A stretch of DNA of 64,000 nucleotides from Acidimicrobiales bacterium (lineage in GTDB: Bacteria > Actinomycetota > Acidimicrobiia > Acidimicrobiales > JBBRAZ01): the NCBI GenBank assembly GCA_038206295.1, contig JBBRAZ010000017.1:1122-65121 (forward strand), in the 5' to 3' direction. The notes beneath the pieces were generated by a model. It searched no databases, had not been told where the DNA came from, and saw only the letters and a program-made list of their open reading frames with translations. How positions within the stretch are numbered: the first letter of the stretch is position 1; every line of letters starts with the position of its first letter. Below, one piece after another: positions 21,056-28,626 of this stretch. A program made the position numbers and the translations under genes.

Positions 21056-22935
21056 TTCGTCTCCGGTCCCTTCGGTCGCGTGCCCGCGGCGTGCAGGTGC
21101 TCGTACAGCCCCGCCGCGACTGCGTCGGGCAGCCACGACAGCGCCTGCAGGTCCTCCAGCGTCGCGCGCTGCACCGCCCGCACCCCGCCCAGCTCCTTCA
21201 CCAGCCGCTTGCGCCGCGCCTCGCCCAGCCCCGGCACCCCGTCGAGCACCGAGCGCGTCATGCGCTTGCCGCGGAGCTGACGGTGGTACGCGATCGCGAA
21301 CCGGTGGGCCTCGTCCCGCACCCGCTGCAGCAGGTACAGCGCCTCGGTCCCCCGGGCGATGCGCACCGGCTCCGGGTCGCCCGGCAGGTACACCTCCTCG
21401 AAGCGCTTCGCCAGCGACGCCACCGGGATCTCCCCGCGCAGCCCCAGCTCGTCGAGCACCCGCACCGCGACGCTCAGCTGCCCCTTGCCGCCGTCCACCA
21501 GCAGCAGCTGCGGCGGGTAGGCGAAGCGCCCGCGCTCCTCGATCGGCAGCGCTCGGTCCGCCAGGTACGCAGTGAGGCGCCGGCGCAGCACCTCCTCCAT
21601 CGCCGCGAAGTCGTCGTTGCCCTCCACCGTGCGGATCTTGAACCGCCGGTACTCCGACGGCCGCGGCTGGCCGTCCTCCAGCACCACCATCGACCCCACG
21701 TAGTCGGTGCCCTGCAGGTGGCTCATGTCGTAGCACTCGATGCGCAGCGGCGACTCCGGCAACCCGAGCGCCTCCTGCAGCTCGTTGAGGGCCCGCGCCC
21801 GCGTGTTGTGGTCCGACGCCCGGCGCATCCGGTGCCGGCGCAGCTCCTCGGCCGCGTTCGCCACCACCGTCTCGCTGAGCTGGCGCTTGTCGCCGCGCTG
21901 GGGCACCCGCACCGACACCTTGGTGCCGCGCATCGAGGTCAACCACGCCTCCAGCAGCTCGGTCTCCGACGTCGGCGACGACACCAGCACCTCGCGCGGC
22001 ACCCCCATCGGCGGGTCGTCGTACAGCCGCTCGAGCACCGAGTCCACCAGCTCGGCGTCGCTCAGGTCCTCCACGCGGTCCACGATCATCCCCTTGCGCC
22101 CCACCACTCGGCCGCGCCGCACCAGGAACACCGCCACGGCCCACTGCAGCTCGTCGCCTGCGAACCCCACCAGGTCCAGGTCCTCGTCGCGCTCGGCCAC
22201 GATCTGCTGGCGCTCGACGGCCTTGCGCACCGCGGCGAGCCGGTCGCGCAGCCGCGCCGCGCGCTCGAAGTCCAGGTCGGCCGCCGCCGCGCCCATCTCA
22301 GACTCGAGCCGCTCCACCACCTCGTCGGTGTCGCCGTCGAGGAACGAGCACAGCTCGGCCACCAGCTCGCGGTAGCGCTCCGGGGTCACCTCCCCCACGC
22401 AGGGCCCTGCGCACTTCTCGATGTGGAACAGCAGGCACGGCCGGCCCAGCGCCTCGTGGCGCCGCAGCTTGGTGTCCGAGCACGTGCGGATCGGGAACGT
22501 GCGCAGCAGCAGGTCGAGCGTCTCGCGGATCGCGTACGCCTGGCCGAAGGGCCCCCAGTACCGCACGCCGGGCTTCTTCGTCCCGCGCAGCACCATCGCC
22601 CGCGGCCACGTGTCGGCCTCGGTGATCGCCAGCCACGGATAGCTCTTGTCGTCGCGCAGCCGCACGTTGAACCGCGGCTGGTGCGCCTTGATCAGCTCGT
22701 TCTCCAGCAGCAGCGCGTCGACCTCGTTCTCGACGGTGATCCACTCCACCGTCGCCGCTGCGGCCACCAGCTGCGCGGTGCGCGGCGCCAGGGTGGCGGG
22801 GTCTGCGAAGTAGTTGGCCAGGCGGCTGCGCAGGCTCTTCGCCTTGCCCACGTACAGGACGCGACCGTGCGCGTCCTTGAACTGGTACGAGCCGGGCTGA
22901 TCGGGGATCGACCCGGTGGGAGGGCGCTCCACCAC
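21052..22935 (-). CDS. uvrC: Excinuclease ABC subunit C
   Basis: GIY-YIG YVGKAKSLRSR, NVRLRDDKSYP, ECYDMSH, LVDGGKGQ, RDEAHRFA and HhH. Confidence 0.97.
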   Translation of the reverse strand: MVERPPTGSIPDQPGSYQFKDAHGRVLYVGKAKSLRSRLANYFADPATLAPRTAQLVAAAATVEWITVENEVDALLLENELIKAHQPRFNVRLRDDKSYPWLAITEADTWPRAMVLRGTKKPGVRYWGPFGQAYAIRETLDLLLRTFPIRTCSDTKLRRHEALGRPCLLFHIEKCAGPCVGEVTPERYRELVAELCSFLDGDTDEVVERLESEMGAAAADLDFERAARLRDRLAAVRKAVERQQIVAERDEDLDLVGFAGDELQWAVAVFLVRRGRVVGRKGMIVDRVEDLSDAELVDSVLERLYDDPPMGVPREVLVSSPTSETELLEAWLTSMRGTKVSVRVPQRGDKRQLSETVVANAAEELRRHRMRRASDHNTRARALNELQEALGLPESPLRIECYDMSHLQGTDYVGSMVVLEDGQPRPSEYRRFKIRTVEGNDDFAAMEEVLRRRLTAYLADRALPIEERGRFAYPPQLLLVDGGKGQLSVAVRVLDELGLRGEIPVASLAKRFEEVYLPGDPEPVRIARGTEALYLLQRVRDEAHRFAIAYHRQLRGKRMTRSVLDGVPGLGEARRKRLVKELGGVRAVQRATLEDLQALSWLPDAVAAGLYEHLHAAGTRPKGPETK

Positions 22936-22968
22936 GATGCCGAGGTTACGGCCGTGCCGCTGCGGCCA

Positions 22969-24492
22969 TCACCCCGTCGGCTCCAGGTCGTCATCGAGCT
23001 CGCCGAACCGTCCGTCGTAGTCCACGTAGAAGCGGCGCGGCGGCGGCACCTCGAGCTCGACGCCGCCGAGGCACGAGAAGATCGTCGGGAACAGCGCCGG
23101 CAGCTCGCGCACCGCGGTGCGCTCCGGGCACTGCGGGAGGCGGAGCGCGCTCAGGTTGGCGAAGCGCTGCTCGAGCCCAGCCGCGCCGGCATCGGGTCCG
23201 GGGAACTCGGTGGTGAACCAGTCGCCGTGATCGCTCACCACGGCGATGACCGCGGACGGATCGGCCGCCACGAGCTGCGTCATCGCCTCCAGCAGCGTCG
23301 AGTTCAGGCACGAGAGCTGCGCCGCGTACGCGTCGCCCAGCACCCCGGTGCGCGGCCCGAGCCGATCGATGGGCGGCTCGCGGCGCGAGCAGTCGGCCAG
23401 CAGCCGGAATGGCTCGTGCGGGCTCATGATGTGGGCGTGGACGAAGCGCGGCGTGTCGCGGTTCCCCGCCCCGGCGGTCAGCTCCACGATGTCGAGCGGA
23501 TCAGGCAGCTCGACCGGCGGATCGAAGGCCGGGAGCAGGCCCAGCGGTGTGAGCTGCCCGAGGAGCAGCCCCACCTCGCTCCCGAGCGGCTGGTCGACGT
23601 TCACCGGCAGGCACCGGACACCCACGCGCGGCTGGCACCGCATCGCGTCGAACCGCCCCGGATTGGCGTACCAGTACTCGTAGCCGAGCGACTCGAAGGT
23701 GCGCACGGTGCGGTTGTCCCCCGTCAACACGGGACCGAAGGCATCGAGGCCACGCGCCAGCTGCTCGACGGCCGTCACCGGGTACGCGGCCTCGAACATC
23801 GACGACACCGACAGCGGGGTGATGGGGTACGCGGCCCGGGAGTCCTCGGCGACCGTGAAGCCGAGCTCCTCCAGCGCCGCGATCGTCGGCTGGTTGTCGA
23901 AGCCGAGGTGCTGCTCCAGCTGATCTTCCCGCGCGTACGCATCGAGGATGAACAGGTAGACGTCTGGGCGGTCGCCGACGACGGCATCGATGAACGCGCG
24001 ACGGTCCGACGGGGTCGCCTGCGGCGCAGCGCGAGCCGCGCCGAGCTCCCACACCAGCAGCGGCGCCGCCGAGGTCACCGCCATCGCGGCGCCCAGGAGG
24101 AGCAGGAAGGTGCGACCCCCGGCCGATCGTGCTGCGCGATCGCCCGCGAGCACCGCGCCGCCGACCACGACCAGCAGCCATGCGAGCACGGCCATCCAGC
24201 CGCCGATGGCATCGTCGAACGGACCGAAGTTGAAGAAGAGGAACACCGCCACCACCACCCACACCGTCGCGACGACCGGCCCGACCCGTCGCTGCAGCGC
24301 AGCTGCCCCGCCGACGGCGACCAGCACGGTCCCCAGGGCGAGCTCCAGCACGCGACCGACGTCGAGGATCTCGAGGCGGTTGGTGTGGAGGAACTGCCAG
24401 TACGGCGCAGCGGCGAACGCCGCCACCACCGCGAGCAGCAGCGGGTCGACCCGATGCCGCTCGGATCTCTCGGCGGCAGCGCGACCAGGCAT
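22969..24492 (-). CDS. Multi-TM membrane protein with C-terminal alkaline-phosphatase-superfamily (sulfatase/LTA-synthase-like) domain
   Basis: About 5 N-terminal TM helices, then FILDAY, YPITPLS, HIMSPHEPF and SDHG. Confidence 0.8.
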   Translation of the reverse strand: MPGRAAAERSERHRVDPLLLAVVAAFAAAPYWQFLHTNRLEILDVGRVLELALGTVLVAVGGAAALQRRVGPVVATVWVVVAVFLFFNFGPFDDAIGGWMAVLAWLLVVVGGAVLAGDRAARSAGGRTFLLLLGAAMAVTSAAPLLVWELGAARAAPQATPSDRRAFIDAVVGDRPDVYLFILDAYAREDQLEQHLGFDNQPTIAALEELGFTVAEDSRAAYPITPLSVSSMFEAAYPVTAVEQLARGLDAFGPVLTGDNRTVRTFESLGYEYWYANPGRFDAMRCQPRVGVRCLPVNVDQPLGSEVGLLLGQLTPLGLLPAFDPPVELPDPLDIVELTAGAGNRDTPRFVHAHIMSPHEPFRLLADCSRREPPIDRLGPRTGVLGDAYAAQLSCLNSTLLEAMTQLVAADPSAVIAVVSDHGDWFTTEFPGPDAGAAGLEQRFANLSALRLPQCPERTAVRELPALFPTIFSCLGGVELEVPPPRRFYVDYDGRFGELDDDLEPTG

Positions 24493-24692
24493 CGAGGATC
24501 GACGCTACCGCCGCGCGGATCCCCCCGCCGAGCACCGCGACCAGCGAGCGCCTCGCTCGCGGCCTCAGGCCGTCTCGGATCGATCGCCGACGCCCGACAG
24601 CCGGGCCACCCGGGAACCCGAGCGCTGGTCCCCGCTGGGGCGATGCGTCAGATCGCATCCGAGAACCTGGTGGCCGGCGGGCGCCGTGGGCG

Positions 24693-24819
24693 TAGGATGA
24701 CCGCGCCGGCCTGGTCTCCGGCGACATATCTCGCTCTGTGGCCGACATCCCCGTGGCGTGGCGACCAGGCTGCCCCCACCGGCCGACAGCAGAGCCTCCA
24801 GCACCGGAGGACGAACCAC
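24693..24819 (+). promoter_or_regulatory. -10 (TAGGAT) plus structured 5' leader of nadA
   Basis: Stem CGGCCTGGTC/GACCAGGCTG encloses two small hairpins; CCTCC can pair with the SD GGAGG. Confidence 0.45.
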
Positions 24820-25914
24820 ATGCTGCGACTCCAGGCACCGCTCCCAGAGCGGTACGTCCAGGCGACCCCAGAGGAGCTCGCAGACCGCATCGCCGCGGCC
24901 AAGGCCGCGCTCGGCGACCGCGTCTTCATCCTCGGGCACCACTACCAGCGCGACGAGATCATGCGGTGGGCCGATGCCCGCGGCGACTCGTTCCAGCTCT
25001 CGCGGCTCGCAGCGGACCGCGACGACGCCGAGGTCATCGTCTTCTGCGGCGTGCACTTCATGGCCGAGTCGGCCGACATCCTCACCGCTGCGCACCAGCA
25101 GGTCATCCTCCCGGACCTCAACGCCGGCTGCTCGATGGCCGACATGGCCGACATCGACCAGGTGACCGACGCCTGGGATGAGCTGGCCGAGGTCACCGAC
25201 GTCAGCCGGCTCGTGCCCATCACCTACATGAACTCGTCGGCCGCCCTCAAGGCCTTCGTGGGGCGCAACGGCGGCGCGGTGTGCACCTCGAGCAACGCCC
25301 GCGCCGTGCTCGAGTGGGCGTTCGCCCGCGGCGACCAGGTGCTGTTCTTCCCCGACCAGCACCTCGGCCGCAACACCGCGCTCGCCATGGGCTACGGCCA
25401 CGACGACCTGCGCCTGTGGAACCCGCGCCTCGCGCTCGGCGGGCTCACCGAGGCCGACTGCAAGGGCGCCTCGGTGCTGCTGTGGAAGGGCCACTGCTCG
25501 GTGCACCAGCGCTTCCGCCCCGAGCACGTCGCCGCGTTCCGCGCCGAGCACCCCGACGGCCTGGTGGTCACCCACCCCGAGTGCGCGCACGACGTGTGCG
25601 AGGTCGCCGACGCGGTCGGCTCGACCGACTTCATCGTCCGCTACATCGAGGCCGCGCCCGCGGGCTCGACGATCGCGGTCGGCACCGAGATCCACCTCGT
25701 GCAGCGCCTCGACGCCGAGACGCCCGACAAGCACGTCGTCACGCTCGACCCGCTGATCTGCCCGTGCTCGACCATGTCGCGCATCGACCCGCAGCACCTC
25801 GCGTGGGTGCTGGAGCGCCTCGTCGACGGTGTGGTCGTGAACCGCATCACCGTCGACGACGAGACCGCGCAGTGGGCGCGGGTCGCCCTCGAGCGCATGC
25901 TCGAGATCACCTGA
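24820..25914 (+). CDS. nadA: Quinolinate synthase A
   Basis: GHHYQR, GDSFQL, FCGVHFMAE, AGCSMAD, YMNSSA, WKGHCSVH, THPEC and CPCSTM; ATG 24820 with GGAGG RBS. Confidence 0.96.
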   Translation: MLRLQAPLPERYVQATPEELADRIAAAKAALGDRVFILGHHYQRDEIMRWADARGDSFQLSRLAADRDDAEVIVFCGVHFMAESADILTAAHQQVILPDLNAGCSMADMADIDQVTDAWDELAEVTDVSRLVPITYMNSSAALKAFVGRNGGAVCTSSNARAVLEWAFARGDQVLFFPDQHLGRNTALAMGYGHDDLRLWNPRLALGGLTEADCKGASVLLWKGHCSVHQRFRPEHVAAFRAEHPDGLVVTHPECAHDVCEVADAVGSTDFIVRYIEAAPAGSTIAVGTEIHLVQRLDAETPDKHVVTLDPLICPCSTMSRIDPQHLAWVLERLVDGVVVNRITVDDETAQWARVALERMLEIT

Positions 25915-25931: not shown

Positions 25932-27473
25932 TCAGGCGTCCGCAGCCCCTCCAGACGGCATCGGCCGCACGGCGATCCCCAGCAACGACTGCCCGAACGG
26001 CATCTGCACCGCTGACTCGATGCGGCGGATCACCGGCACCGCGTACCGATCGAACGCCTGCACCGCGGATGGCGTCGTGGGCATCTTGCCCATCCGCACC
26101 GCGTACAGCCACCACGCGATGGCGCCAGGGAGGTTCATGTACCGGACGGAGAGCGGCTCCAGCCCAGCAGCGGCGAACTGCTGCTCGAGCTCGTGCTTGC
26201 GGTAGCGACGGACGTGACCGATCCGCAGGTCGAACTCGCTGTAGAGCTCCTCGAGCGCGGGCACGAAGATGATGACCTTGCCACCTGGTCTGACGAGATC
26301 CCGCATCCGCGCCAACGCTCCCGTCGCGTCCGCGATGTGCTCGAGCACGTTGACGGCGACCGCGGCGTCGTAGGTCCCCGTCAGCGTCGGATCGAGGATG
26401 TCGGCGTGCAGCACCTCCACCCGCCCGCCCGACGGGAACCGCTCGTTGAGCAACGGCACCGATCTGCTGGACACCTCCAACGCTGTCACCGCAGCAACCG
26501 CGCTCAATCGCTCGGTGAGATCACCGTGGCCCGCGCCGACCTCGATCACCGCTTCGCCGAGGTGCGGTCGAGCGCAGTCGAAGATCCAATCTGCGTAGTT
26601 GACCGCCCCGCTGAGGGAGTGCAGCGACTCCACGAGCTCGTTGTCTGTGTCGTCGTAGTCCGCAATCCGCCGGGCCGCCCTCTGCCGAGCGCGCCACAGA
26701 CGAGGCCCGACGCGCGAGTACCACAGGATGCACAGCACGGTCACGACACCAGCGACCACACGGGACCGCGAGTGATCGTCGTCGAGCGGCCGCGCCGGGC
26801 AGGAGATGCCAACCTCGAACACCCGGCGGCGGTGCACGGCGAGCTTCGCCACGATCTCGATCTCCACGCCGTAGCGCGACTGCTCCAGATCCAGGCACTG
26901 GATCGCCGACCGCGTGAACGCCTTGCAGCTCGACTCGACATCGGTGAGGTTCAGGTTCGTCGACATGTTGGAGAGCGTGGTGACCGCACGGCTCCCGAGG
27001 CTGCGCCAGAACGGTTCGATGCGTCGCTCCACACGAGGCTTGAACCGCGACCCGAGCACCGCGTCAGCTGAACCAGCCAGCAGCGGCCCGAGCACGTCGT
27101 CGTAGGCGACGAGGTTCGCGTCAGGGTCGGCTTCCTGGATCAACACGAACGGCATCGTCACGCGGGCGATCCCGCTGCGAATCGCATCGCCGCGTCCTCG
27201 ACGACGGTCATGGCGCACGACGACGATCCGCCCGTCGTCGATCGCATCGACGACGGGTCCCGTCCGGTCGGTGGAGCCGTCGTCGACGACGATCACCTGC
27301 CCGGTGTACGGCGACCCGAGGATGCCCTCGAGCGCAGCGGCGATCGTGGCCTCCGCGTTGCGCACCGGCACGATCACCGTCAGGCAGCGGTCGCGCACGC
27401 CCGAGCTGCGGCTGGGGTCCGCGGTCGACACGTCGCCGGCGCCGCCCTCCCTCGATTCGTCGATGACGGCCAT
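25932..27473 (-). CDS. GT2 (polyprenol-phosphate glycosyltransferase-like) + class I methyltransferase fusion
   Basis: VIVPVRN, DDGSTD, GSRF and LTDVES in the N-half; EVGAGHG and NVLEHI in the C-half; start ATG 27473 uncertain. Confidence 0.85.
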   Translation of the reverse strand: MAVIDESREGGAGDVSTADPSRSSGVRDRCLTVIVPVRNAEATIAAALEGILGSPYTGQVIVVDDGSTDRTGPVVDAIDDGRIVVVRHDRRRGRGDAIRSGIARVTMPFVLIQEADPDANLVAYDDVLGPLLAGSADAVLGSRFKPRVERRIEPFWRSLGSRAVTTLSNMSTNLNLTDVESSCKAFTRSAIQCLDLEQSRYGVEIEIVAKLAVHRRRVFEVGISCPARPLDDDHSRSRVVAGVVTVLCILWYSRVGPRLWRARQRAARRIADYDDTDNELVESLHSLSGAVNYADWIFDCARPHLGEAVIEVGAGHGDLTERLSAVAAVTALEVSSRSVPLLNERFPSGGRVEVLHADILDPTLTGTYDAAVAVNVLEHIADATGALARMRDLVRPGGKVIIFVPALEELYSEFDLRIGHVRRYRKHELEQQFAAAGLEPLSVRYMNLPGAIAWWLYAVRMGKMPTTPSAVQAFDRYAVPVIRRIESAVQMPFGQSLLGIAVRPMPSGGAADA

Positions 27474-28626
27474 GCGGGCGCGCAGTGTACTGGTCTCCGC
27501 GTCCAGCGATCGGGGACAGCGACGGCGACACGCGGCGCGCTCCCCCGACGGGCGGCTCGTATGCTGCGCCCATCGATCGACACCTCCTCGCAATCGGCGC
27601 CATCGGCGTGGTCGCCGCAGCGACGTTCCCGCTGGCAGCAGCTCGAAGCGACGGCGCACTCGCCCTCATCTGGCCGAGCAGCGAGACGCCCGCTGGTGCG
27701 CACATCGCTCGCGACTTCCCCGACGAGGAGCTGCCCGCCGGCGACGGCCACGACGGGCAGTACTTCTACGTGATCGCTCGTCAGCCCATGCACCTGGAGG
27801 CCGCGGCGACGGGCCTCGACGCAGCGCAGTACCGGCTGCAACGCCCGATCTTCCCCCTGGCCGCCTGGGCGCTCGCGCCGACCGGCGGCGGCTACGCGCT
27901 CATCGCGGCCATGGCGATCGTCGGCGTGCTGGCGATCGGCCTGACCGTCGCCGCAGCTGCTTCGATCCTGGAACGGCTCGGGGGGCGCCGTGAGCTGGCC
28001 CTGCTCGTGCTCGCGCTCCCAGGCACCTACTGGTCGGTGCGGCTGTCCACCGCTGACAACCTCGCTCTCGCGCTGGCGACCCTCGCCGTAGCGCTCGCGC
28101 TCGCCCGGCGCGACGCGCTCGCAACCGCCATCGCCGTGCTCGCGGTCCTCGCGAAGGAGCCGATCATCCTCGTGCTGATCGGCTTCGCGCTGTGGCGCCG
28201 CGATCGCGCCGCCGTCGCGCTCGCAGCCGTCCCCGCCGTCGCCGCCGGCGCCTGGTACGTGACGCTCGCCGTCCTCCTCGATGCCCCGGGCACACCGGTT
28301 CCGGCGGTCACCTCACCGCTGCACGGCGTCACCGAGGCCTGGCGGCTGGTGTGGTCGGTGGGAATCGCCCGTGACGGGATGCTGATCCTCGTGCTGACCG
28401 TCGGCCTCGCGGTGGCGGCCCTCCTCCGAAGCGGCCTGCGCGGACCGTTCGGCTGGGTGCTCGCGCTGCACCTCGCGCTGTTCGTCGTCATGACCGAGCA
28501 CGTCATCGGCCTCGCGACCAACGTCAGCCGCGCTGGCGCGCCGATCATGCTGTTCAGCCTGCTGACGCTGCTGACGCCGCGTCCCGGGGAGCGCCCCACC
28601 GATGATGCGCCACCCTCCGTCGACGC

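What the first reader, a model, noticed from the sequence alone, without database searches (positions are those of the whole stretch)
24693..24819. Candidate cis-regulatory RNA in the nadA leader
Seen: unlike the many leaderless genes here, nadA has an about 115-nt leader. A 10-bp closing stem (24707-24716 with 24763-24772) encloses two hairpins (GCGA-CATATC-TCGC; GCCG...TGGC), followed by CCTCC (24795-24799), which can sequester the SD GGAGG (24806-24810). Established: NAD+-sensing riboswitches are known upstream of nadA in Acidobacteria and of pnuC in streptococci; I cannot match this leader to them by eye. Inference: possibly a new NAD/NMN/quinolinate- or Fe-S-responsive translational switch.
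Basis: partly seen in the sequence, partly recalled or inferred. Interest (0 to 1): 0.55.

Follow-up and report, generated by a model that had tools for sequence, protein, structure and literature searches.

The report
Single-domain NAD+-type riboswitch before nadA
The leader of the NAD-synthesis gene nadA is a strongly conserved folded RNA with the ligand-pocket signature of the known two-domain class-I NAD+ riboswitch, but built as one domain braced by a loop-loop contact, an arrangement I could not find described.

Summary
The leader is real and far more than chance. From a -10 box (24693-24698) to the nadA start (24820) it forms a 5' hairpin H1, a basal helix P1x, then P1, an 8-nt bulge ACAUCCCC (24745-24752), P1a and a small apical hairpin P1b. 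The H1 loop CCUGG pairs with the P1b loop CCAGG. A CCUCC/GGAGG hairpin covers the Shine-Dalgarno.

In 85 Acidimicrobiia nadA leaders, 97.8% of modelled pairs hold and 16 of 24 pairs show compensatory changes. The element occurs once per genome and, where checked, always directly before nadA.

The middle 5 bp of its "closing stem" are the loop-loop contact; its two inner hairpins are not conserved. It also missed that the core (penultimate C:G of P1, ACANCCCC, G:C of P1a) is the ADP pocket of the class-I NAD+ riboswitch.

The leader fails Rfam RF03013 (14.8 vs 37.5 bits), is not tandem, and lacks the 7-bp P1a and GYG loop. I read it as an undescribed single-domain variant, probably an NAD+-responsive translational OFF switch. 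Ligand and switching step are untested.

Other agents in this scan reached the same reading on other genomes.

The parts
24693..24698 (+). -10 promoter box TAGGAT; the transcript probably starts about 24704
   Evidence: A TAnnnT hexamer ends 6-12 nt before H1 in 84 of 85 homologous leaders. The sigma-70 consensus scan finds no full promoter and no terminator.
24705..24722 (+). Hairpin H1: stem GCCGG (24705-09) with CCGGC (24718-22), loop CCUGGUCU (24710-17)
   Evidence: 98.1% paired. All 5 pairs show compensatory changes, e.g. GCCAC/GUGGC and GCUGG/CCAGC. RNAalifold predicts it independently on the MAFFT alignment.
24710..24715 (+). 5' strand of the loop-loop (kissing) contact, CCUGGU
   Evidence: Pairs with 24764-24769 and is 94.5% paired. 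The middle pair is UA 67, GC 9, CG 7, AU 1; the first pair is CG 81, UA 4.
24723..24732 (+). Unpaired linker with conserved ACAUAU (24724-29)
   Evidence: Column counts are A62 C73 A75 U65 A70 U56 of 85. No pairing partner was found; its role is unknown.
24733..24739 (+). P1x 5' strand (basal extension helix)
   Evidence: Pairs with 24789-24795. Duplex energy of a leader's own strands averages -12.2 kcal/mol, against -6.5 for strands taken from other leaders.
24740..24744 (+). P1 5' strand GGCCG
   Evidence: Pairs with 24780-84 and is 98.8% paired; 4 of 5 pairs are compensatory. C24743:G24781 is C:G in 85 of 85 sequences.
24745..24752 (+). 8-nt bulge ACAUCCCC (the ACANCCCC signature)
   Evidence: Column counts are A82 C84 A83 N C78 C82 C83 C84 of 85. 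It aligns to the bulge of RF03013.
24753..24756 (+). P1a 5' strand GUGG
   Evidence: Pairs with 24776-79 and is 99.7% paired. The second pair is UA 43 / CG 41; the first pair G:C is invariant.
24760..24774 (+). Apical hairpin P1b: GGCG (24760-63) with UGCC (24771-74), 7-nt loop ACCAGGC
   Evidence: Predicted by RNAalifold and 99.4% paired, but nearly invariant. Divergent leaders carry GGCG/CGCC, GAG/CUC, GCU/AGC and AUA/UAU instead. Support is weaker than for the other helices.
24764..24769 (+). 3' strand of the loop-loop contact, ACCAGG
   Evidence: See 24710-24715.
24776..24784 (+). P1a 3' strand CCAC (24776-79) and P1 3' strand CGGCC (24780-84)
24785..24788 (+). Asymmetric 3' bulge GACA between P1 and P1x
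   Evidence: 2-6 nt of variable, A-rich sequence in relatives.
24789..24795 (+). P1x 3' strand
24795..24810 (+). Shine-Dalgarno hairpin: anti-SD CCUCC (24795-99), loop, SD GGAGG (24806-10)
   Evidence: A pyrimidine anti-SD lies 3-6 nt before the SD in most GC-rich leaders. Predicted probability that the SD is paired is 0.96 here and 0.82 on average in 81 leaders, against 0.60 for 39 control SD sites in the window.
24820..25914 (+). nadA, quinolinate synthase (364 aa)
   Evidence: Pfam PF02445, E 5.3e-98.

Best explanation
The ~116-nt nadA leader is a riboswitch aptamer plus expression platform. It is related to the class-I NAD+ riboswitch but has a different overall build.

Shown here: one domain (P1x-P1, ACAUCCCC bulge, P1a, small internal loop, P1b) is braced by Watson-Crick pairing between the P1b loop and the loop of a 5' hairpin, H1.

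Inferred: the pocket elements that bind the ADP half of NAD+ in class I are all kept, so the RNA most likely binds NAD+ or NADH through its ADP moiety. These elements are the penultimate C:G of P1, the ACANCCCC bulge and the G:C that opens P1a.

Inferred, least certain: ligand binding stabilises P1/P1x. That helix abuts the CCUCC/GGAGG hairpin, so closing it removes the single-stranded standby region next to the already masked Shine-Dalgarno. nadA translation then falls when NAD+ is plentiful.
For: Structure:
- 85 leaders show 97.8% of cells paired, and 16 of 24 pairs have compensatory changes. No shuffle of 500 reaches this, and slid controls reach at most 51% paired.
- The same helices appear on an independent MAFFT alignment and in RNAalifold.
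- P1x is supported by own-versus-foreign strand energies, -12.2 against -6.5 kcal/mol.

Gene association:
- All 85 matches lie 13-114 nt (mostly 14-26) before nadA on the same strand.
- There is one significant copy in the window's genome.
- About 87 of 101 nadA-bearing genomes sampled in the order carry it. No genuine copy was found in a genome where nadA was not detected, apart from one fragmented assembly.

Link to class I:
- The only Rfam hit in the spacer is RF03013, aligned P1 / bulge / P1a.
- Weak whole-genome RF03013 hits land exactly on this element in at least 8 genomes.
- The pocket features named in PMC7297122 are conserved: C6:G47-equivalent 85/85, bulge positions 78-84 of 85, G16:C45-equivalent 85/85.

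Mode of control:
- No terminator is present.
- The SD is masked more than control SD sites.
Against: - No binding or expression data exist.
- In class I, the tertiary C:G pairs between the bulge and a GYG loop 7 bp away are needed for binding (PMC7297122, PMC10702441). Here P1a is 4 bp and there is no conserved GYG.
- The RF03013 score is noise-level on its own (14.8 bits; stronger chance hits occur in the same genome).
- Thermodynamic modelling shows no aptamer-dependent change in SD pairing: 0.78 with the aptamer forced, 0.82 with it forbidden. The switching step is therefore not demonstrated.
- Low-GC members lack a clear anti-SD hairpin.
- Some members have C instead of A at bulge position 1, and one (L159) lacks the bulge altogether.
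- Class-I domain 1 itself does not discriminate ATP or ADP from NAD+ in vitro (PMC10702441).
Confidence: 0.6

Rival explanations
1. It is the same conserved aptamer, but the physiological ligand is another adenosine-diphosphate-containing or related metabolite (ADP/ATP, NaAD, NADP, ADP-ribose), or the RNA reads the NADH/NAD+ ratio. The outcome could even be activation rather than repression.
For: - Class-I domain 1 binds only the ADP moiety and does not reject ATP (PMC7297122, PMC10702441).
- The scaffold around the pocket differs here.
- The P1x 3' strand can also pair with the first codons of nadA (mean -8.6 kcal/mol; folds). That would give an OFF state without ligand.
Against: - The exclusive association with nadA fits end-product feedback best.
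- The P1x-3'/start-codon pairing shows no covariation: -8.6 for own strands against -8.4 for foreign strands.
Confidence: 0.22
2. It is a structured leader that binds no small molecule. It could be a target of a protein or small RNA regulator, or an mRNA-stabilising or temperature-sensitive 5' structure that merely keeps the Shine-Dalgarno partly masked.
For: - The SD hairpin is predicted to form whatever the aptamer state.
- One genome keeps the whole scaffold after losing the bulge (L159).
Against: - About 20 unpaired positions are nearly invariant across a whole class, including an exact copy of a known ligand-pocket bulge with its flanking pairs. That is typical of metabolite-binding RNAs.
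- There is one copy per genome, always at nadA.
Confidence: 0.12
3. One reading: a 10-bp closing stem encloses two small hairpins, forming a novel sensor of quinolinate, NMN or Fe-S status unrelated to known NAD+ riboswitches.
For: The complementarity exists in this one sequence.
Against: - Both inner hairpins and the outer pairs of the stem fail conservation and covariation tests.
- The competing helices H1, P1 and P1a covary.
- The core matches class I.
Confidence: 0.03

Closest known systems
NAD+-I riboswitch (nadA motif, Rfam RF03013), domain 1, Acidobacteria
   Same: - Lies directly upstream of nadA.
- Has an 8-nt ACANCCCC bulge on the 5' strand between P1 and P1a.
- C:G is the penultimate P1 pair and G:C the first P1a pair.
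- Has a series of helices P1 / P1a / internal loop / P1b.
- Has no terminator here, but Shine-Dalgarno masking, like the class-I second domain's platform.
   Different: - One domain instead of two in tandem. Malkowski et al. 2019 state that neither domain occurs alone in nature.
- P1a is 4 bp, not a conserved 7 bp.
- The internal loop has no GYG.
- The P1b loop pairs with the loop of an extra 5' hairpin.
- There is an extra basal helix P1x.
- The SD sits in a separate hairpin, not in P1'.
- Found in Acidimicrobiia (Actinomycetota), not Acidobacteria.
- Scores 14.8 bits against a 37.5-bit threshold.
ubiB motif (Nocardia), a variant of nadA-motif domain 1 (Malkowski et al. 2019, PMC6859854)
   Same: It is an actinobacterial relative of the ADP-pocket domain, followed by a hairpin that holds the ribosome binding site.
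   Different: As described in PMC7297122, ubiB keeps the 7-bp spacing and the internal loop of domain 1. It is followed by a plain 11-bp stem-loop and is associated with ubiB, not nadA. No 5' hairpin or loop-loop contact is described. I could not obtain ubiB sequences to compare directly.
NAD+-II riboswitch (pnuC motif, Streptococcus)
   Same: It is also an NAD-related cis-regulator with a pseudoknot that masks the ribosome binding site.
   Different: It has an unrelated sequence and fold, binds the nicotinamide (NMN) half, and controls pnuC. There was no Rfam match here.

Membership tests
NAD+-I riboswitch (nadA motif, RF03013) | 8-nt ACANCCCC bulge on the 5' strand between P1 and P1a | tested here: met
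   ACAUCCCC at 24745-52. Column counts are A82 C84 A83 N C78 C82 C83 C84 of 85 leaders. It aligns to the model's bulge.
NAD+-I riboswitch (nadA motif, RF03013) | C:G as the penultimate P1 pair next to the bulge (contacts the ligand adenosine), and G:C opening P1a | tested here: met
   C24743:G24781 is C:G in 85/85 and G24753:C24779 is G:C in 85/85. The feature is defined in PMC7297122.
NAD+-I riboswitch (nadA motif, RF03013) | P1a of 7 bp, followed by an internal loop whose GYG pairs with two bulge cytosines | tested here: not met
   P1a is 4 bp. The loop positions 24757-59 are variable and the 3' side is a single C.
NAD+-I riboswitch (nadA motif, RF03013) | Two similar bulged domains in tandem | tested here: not met
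   There is only one bulged domain. The 5' element H1 is a plain hairpin, and the linker ACAUAU is not flanked as a bulge.
NAD+-I riboswitch (nadA motif, RF03013) | Score at or above Rfam's gathering threshold | tested here: not met
   14.8 bits against 37.5. No genome reached the cut-off: 0 of 101 relatives and 0 of 151 genomes of the phylum.
NAD+-I riboswitch (nadA motif, RF03013) | Location immediately upstream of nadA | tested here: met
   85 of 85 matches.
NAD+-I riboswitch (nadA motif, RF03013) | Binds NAD+/ADP and represses expression | not testable with these tools
   Needs in-line probing or ITC, and reporter assays.
NAD+-II riboswitch (pnuC motif) | Match to the family model | tested here: not met
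   No hit even at E up to 10 in 24400-24950.

The most novel reading that the evidence does not exclude
This is a natural stand-alone ADP-pocket domain that works as a complete NAD+ sensor. Its extra invariant unpaired nucleotides (linker ACAUAU, the P1b region, the loop-loop helix) would build the missing nicotinamide-side contacts or replace the GYG tertiary lock. If so, it would show what the enigmatic second domain of class I is for, or that it is dispensable. It could also be an evolutionary sister or ancestor of the tandem form.
Probability: 0.25. Interest if true: 0.85.

Novelty: new variant of a known kind. Interest (0 to 1): 0.7.

Why it matters
The class-I NAD+ riboswitch has open problems. 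In vitro, only the ADP half of NAD+ is seen to bind. The second domain shows no convincing ligand binding. The discoverers reported that neither domain occurs alone in nature.

A widespread natural single-domain version, controlling the same gene in a different phylum, gives a direct experimental handle on three questions:
- Does the pocket alone suffice for regulation?
- How is the pocket locked without the GYG contact?
- Is NAD+ distinguished from ADP and ATP?

It also extends riboswitch control of NAD synthesis to Acidimicrobiia, an abundant and mostly uncultured group in soil, freshwater, marine sponges and wastewater. Finally, it would supply a new covariance model for genome annotation.

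Tried and rejected
- Rfam at gathering thresholds: only two tRNAs in the window.
- RF03013 across 101 relatives and 151 genomes of the phylum: nothing over the cut-off. The best hit (29.6 bits, L176) lies inside a coding repeat.
- Minimum free energy of the leader: no more stable than shuffles (z 0.05).
- Weak matches of my model R1 (L102 in the window's own genome, L141-144, L156, L163, L164): none of those screened with tblastn (L141-144, L156, L163, L164) is next to nadA, all lack the bulge or the loop-loop complementarity, and I treated them as noise.
- A second anchor match in L060: chance.
- Search for a mutually exclusive 'ON' structure, with four negative results:
  - P1x-3' against the start codon region, own versus foreign energies: no covariation.
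  - P1x-5' against the start region or the SD: no signal.
  - Anti-SD against SD: no signal, as expected since the SD is fixed by the ribosome.
  - Forcing or forbidding the aptamer barely changes predicted SD pairing.
- Eight nadA-bearing genomes of the order with intact upstream DNA have no trace of the motif or of RF03013.
- Literature searches for ACANCCCC, NAD+-I variants, a third class, or an Acidimicrobiia/Actinobacteria nadA riboswitch found no description.

Full report
**What is at the locus**

nadA (Pfam NadA, E 5e-98) runs from 24820 to 25914. Its neighbours are a divergent 507-aa ORF with no Pfam match (22969-24492, minus strand) and a convergent glycosyltransferase-methyltransferase gene. 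nadA therefore stands alone behind a 327-bp spacer.

The fold of this single sequence is no more stable than shuffles (z 0.05), so the question had to be settled by comparison with relatives.

**First lead**

At curated thresholds Rfam finds only two tRNAs in the window. A permissive scan of 24400-24950 gives a single hit: RF03013, the nadA motif or class-I NAD+ riboswitch, at 24740-24784. It scores 14.8 bits against a threshold of 37.5, with E = 2. The alignment places GGCCG/CGGCC as P1, ACAUCCCC as the bulge and GUGG/CCAC as P1a.

On its own this is noise-level, because the same genome has stronger chance hits. However, among the few weak whole-genome RF03013 hits in relatives, at least eight fall exactly on the element defined below (G000, G013, G024, G041, G055, G062, G074, G078). 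Chance cannot explain hits landing repeatedly on one 100-nt target in megabase genomes.

**Conservation**

I fetched 80 Acidimicrobiales loci that encode close NadA relatives (71-77% identity).

- 74 of them contain the conserved anchor sequence just upstream of nadA, and 70 distinct full-length copies went into the alignment.
- Two more are cut by contig ends with parts of the leader visible.
- Four show nothing, one of those also being cut by a contig end.

A covariance model built from the 70 homologous leaders plus the window's own (R1) gave these results:

- One significant match in the window's own genome, at this site (103 bits; the next best is 23.6 bits, E 0.07).
- Matches in 88 of 151 genomes sampled from the order.
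- Matches in 45 of 151 sampled from the class, including other orders.
- Outside the class within the phylum, only four weak matches. None of these is next to nadA.

nadA itself was found in 101 of the 151 genomes of the order. About 87 of those carry the element, counting two low-GC members found only with filters off. Six more have nadA at a contig edge. Eight have intact upstream DNA without the element.

All 85 aligned matches lie on the nadA strand, with their 3' end 13-114 nt (mostly 14-26) before the start codon. The tallies include two unpublished genomes (G042 and G064). No sequence from them was used in the alignments.

**Structure**

Two alignments were scored: a MAFFT alignment (A1, 71 sequences) and a model-based alignment of 85 leaders (A3).

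| Element | Window coordinates | % paired (A3) | Covariation |
|---|---|---|---|
| H1 | 24705-09 / 24718-22 | 98.1 | 5 of 5 pairs compensatory |
| Loop-loop contact | 24710-15 / 24764-69 | 94.5 | middle pair UA 67, GC 9, CG 7, AU 1 |
| P1 | 24740-44 / 24780-84 | 98.8 | 4 of 5 pairs compensatory |
| P1a | 24753-56 / 24776-79 | 99.7 | second pair UA 43 / CG 41 |

The loop-loop contact was not part of the model, so the alignment is not fitted to it.

RNAalifold on the MAFFT alignment independently returns H1, P1 and P1a. It adds a small apical hairpin, P1b (GGCG 24760-63 with UGCC 24771-74), whose 7-nt loop carries the CCAGG. P1b is 99.4% paired but almost invariant. Its support comes from divergent members that carry GGCG/CGCC, GAG/CUC, GCU/AGC or AUA/UAU instead. 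I rate it as likely rather than shown.

For the whole model without P1x:

- 97.8% of cells are paired.
- 16 of 24 pairs have compensatory changes.
- 0 of 500 shuffles reach this.
- Slid controls reach at most 51% paired.

A basal helix P1x (24733-39 / 24789-95) varies too much in register for column counts. It is supported instead by duplex energies of a leader's own strands (-12.2 kcal/mol) against strands from other leaders (-6.5).

A TAnnnT -10 box ends 6-12 nt before H1 in 84 of 85 leaders, so the RNA begins at H1. No terminator is present.

Scored on the same alignment, only the central five pairs of the 'closing stem' are supported, and they are the loop-loop contact. The outer pairs do not covary, and their 5' bases belong to H1. 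The two inner hairpins are not conserved.

**Comparison with class I**

PMC6859854 and PMC7297122 describe class I as two tandem domains. Each has P1, an ACANCCCC bulge and P1a. Domain 1 adds a 7-bp P1a, an internal loop whose GYG pairs with two bulge cytosines, and P1b.

In class I the ligand's adenosine docks on the penultimate C:G of P1 and stacks on the first bulge A. The diphosphate is held by Mg2+ at the neck of the bulge.

Features kept here:

- The bulge is kept: 78-84 of 85 at each specified position.
- The penultimate C:G of P1 is invariant (85/85).
- The G:C that opens P1a is invariant (85/85).
- The order of helices, P1 / P1a / loop / P1b, is retained.

Features that differ:

- There is a single domain.
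- P1a is 4 bp.
- There is no conserved GYG.
- The P1b loop kisses an extra 5' hairpin.
- P1x is added.
- The Shine-Dalgarno sits in its own hairpin.
- The Rfam model does not reach threshold.

It therefore works like, and is very probably related to, class I, but it fails several defining features. I file it as a new variant rather than a member.

**Mechanism**

Shown: the structure, its exclusive link to nadA, the pocket signature, the absence of a terminator, and an SD that is more masked than controls. Predicted pairing is 0.96 here and 0.82 across 81 leaders, against 0.60 for 39 control SD sites in the window.

Inferred: an ADP-containing ligand, most likely NAD+ or NADH, stabilises P1/P1x and lowers translation.

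The switching step itself is unresolved.

- I found no conserved alternative pairing.
- Forcing or forbidding the aptamer hardly changes predicted SD pairing.
- The idea that best fits the anatomy follows from P1x abutting the SD hairpin. Closing P1/P1x would remove the single-stranded standby region the ribosome needs to open that hairpin.
- Low-GC members lack a clear anti-SD. So the P1x/SD proximity may matter more than the anti-SD.

**Novelty**

Full-text searches found no description of such an element. The discoverers of class I state that neither domain is found alone in nature.

After I had formed this reading, a look-up showed that other agents of this scan reached the same conclusion on other Acidimicrobiia genomes. 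That is not independent evidence, but it means the scan has found this element before.

Noticed in passing
L159 (G099:C1, about 2570466-2570562, minus strand): One Acidimicrobiales genome keeps H1, the loop-loop complementarity, P1, P1a, P1x and the SD hairpin. The ACANCCCC bulge, however, is reduced to 1-2 nt. This looks like a natural loss of the ligand pocket with the scaffold retained.
   Followed up: partly
L172 (G133), L169 (G073), L153, L155: Divergent, partly low-GC members have C instead of A at bulge position 1 (CCAUCCCC or CCAUAUCC). L172 replaces the near-invariant GGCGA with AAUAU, and L172 and L169 lack a clear anti-SD hairpin. The Infernal filters missed L172 and L169 in the genome search.
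   Followed up: partly
window 24787-24795 with 24820-24826, and the same places in relatives: The 3' strand of P1x is also complementary to the first codons of nadA (AUGCUCCGG in many relatives, AUGCUG here). The MFE of the tail often pairs them, but own-versus-foreign energies show no covariation.
   Followed up: yes
window 24724-24729: The unpaired linker ACAUAU between H1 and P1x is conserved (56-75 of 85 per position), with no partner found. In one subgroup it reads ACAACCUC, reminiscent of the bulge sequence.
   Followed up: no
window 22969-24492 (minus strand): The divergently transcribed 507-aa ORF upstream of nadA has no Pfam match. nadA has no nadB or nadC next to it. The downstream gene is a convergent glycosyltransferase family 2 / methyltransferase fusion (25932-27659).
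   Followed up: no
window 21091-25914 (plus strand): The nadA frame stays open for 1607 codons upstream of the real start. This is a high-GC artefact that could mislead gene callers.
   Followed up: no
L176 1470-1530 (G364:C80): The best RF03013 hit in the phylum sample (29.6 bits) lies in a coding repeat, ...ATCGACATCCCCGAG ATCGAGATCCCCGAG TTCAACATCCCC.... It is a false positive caused by the ACATCCCC word.
   Followed up: yes
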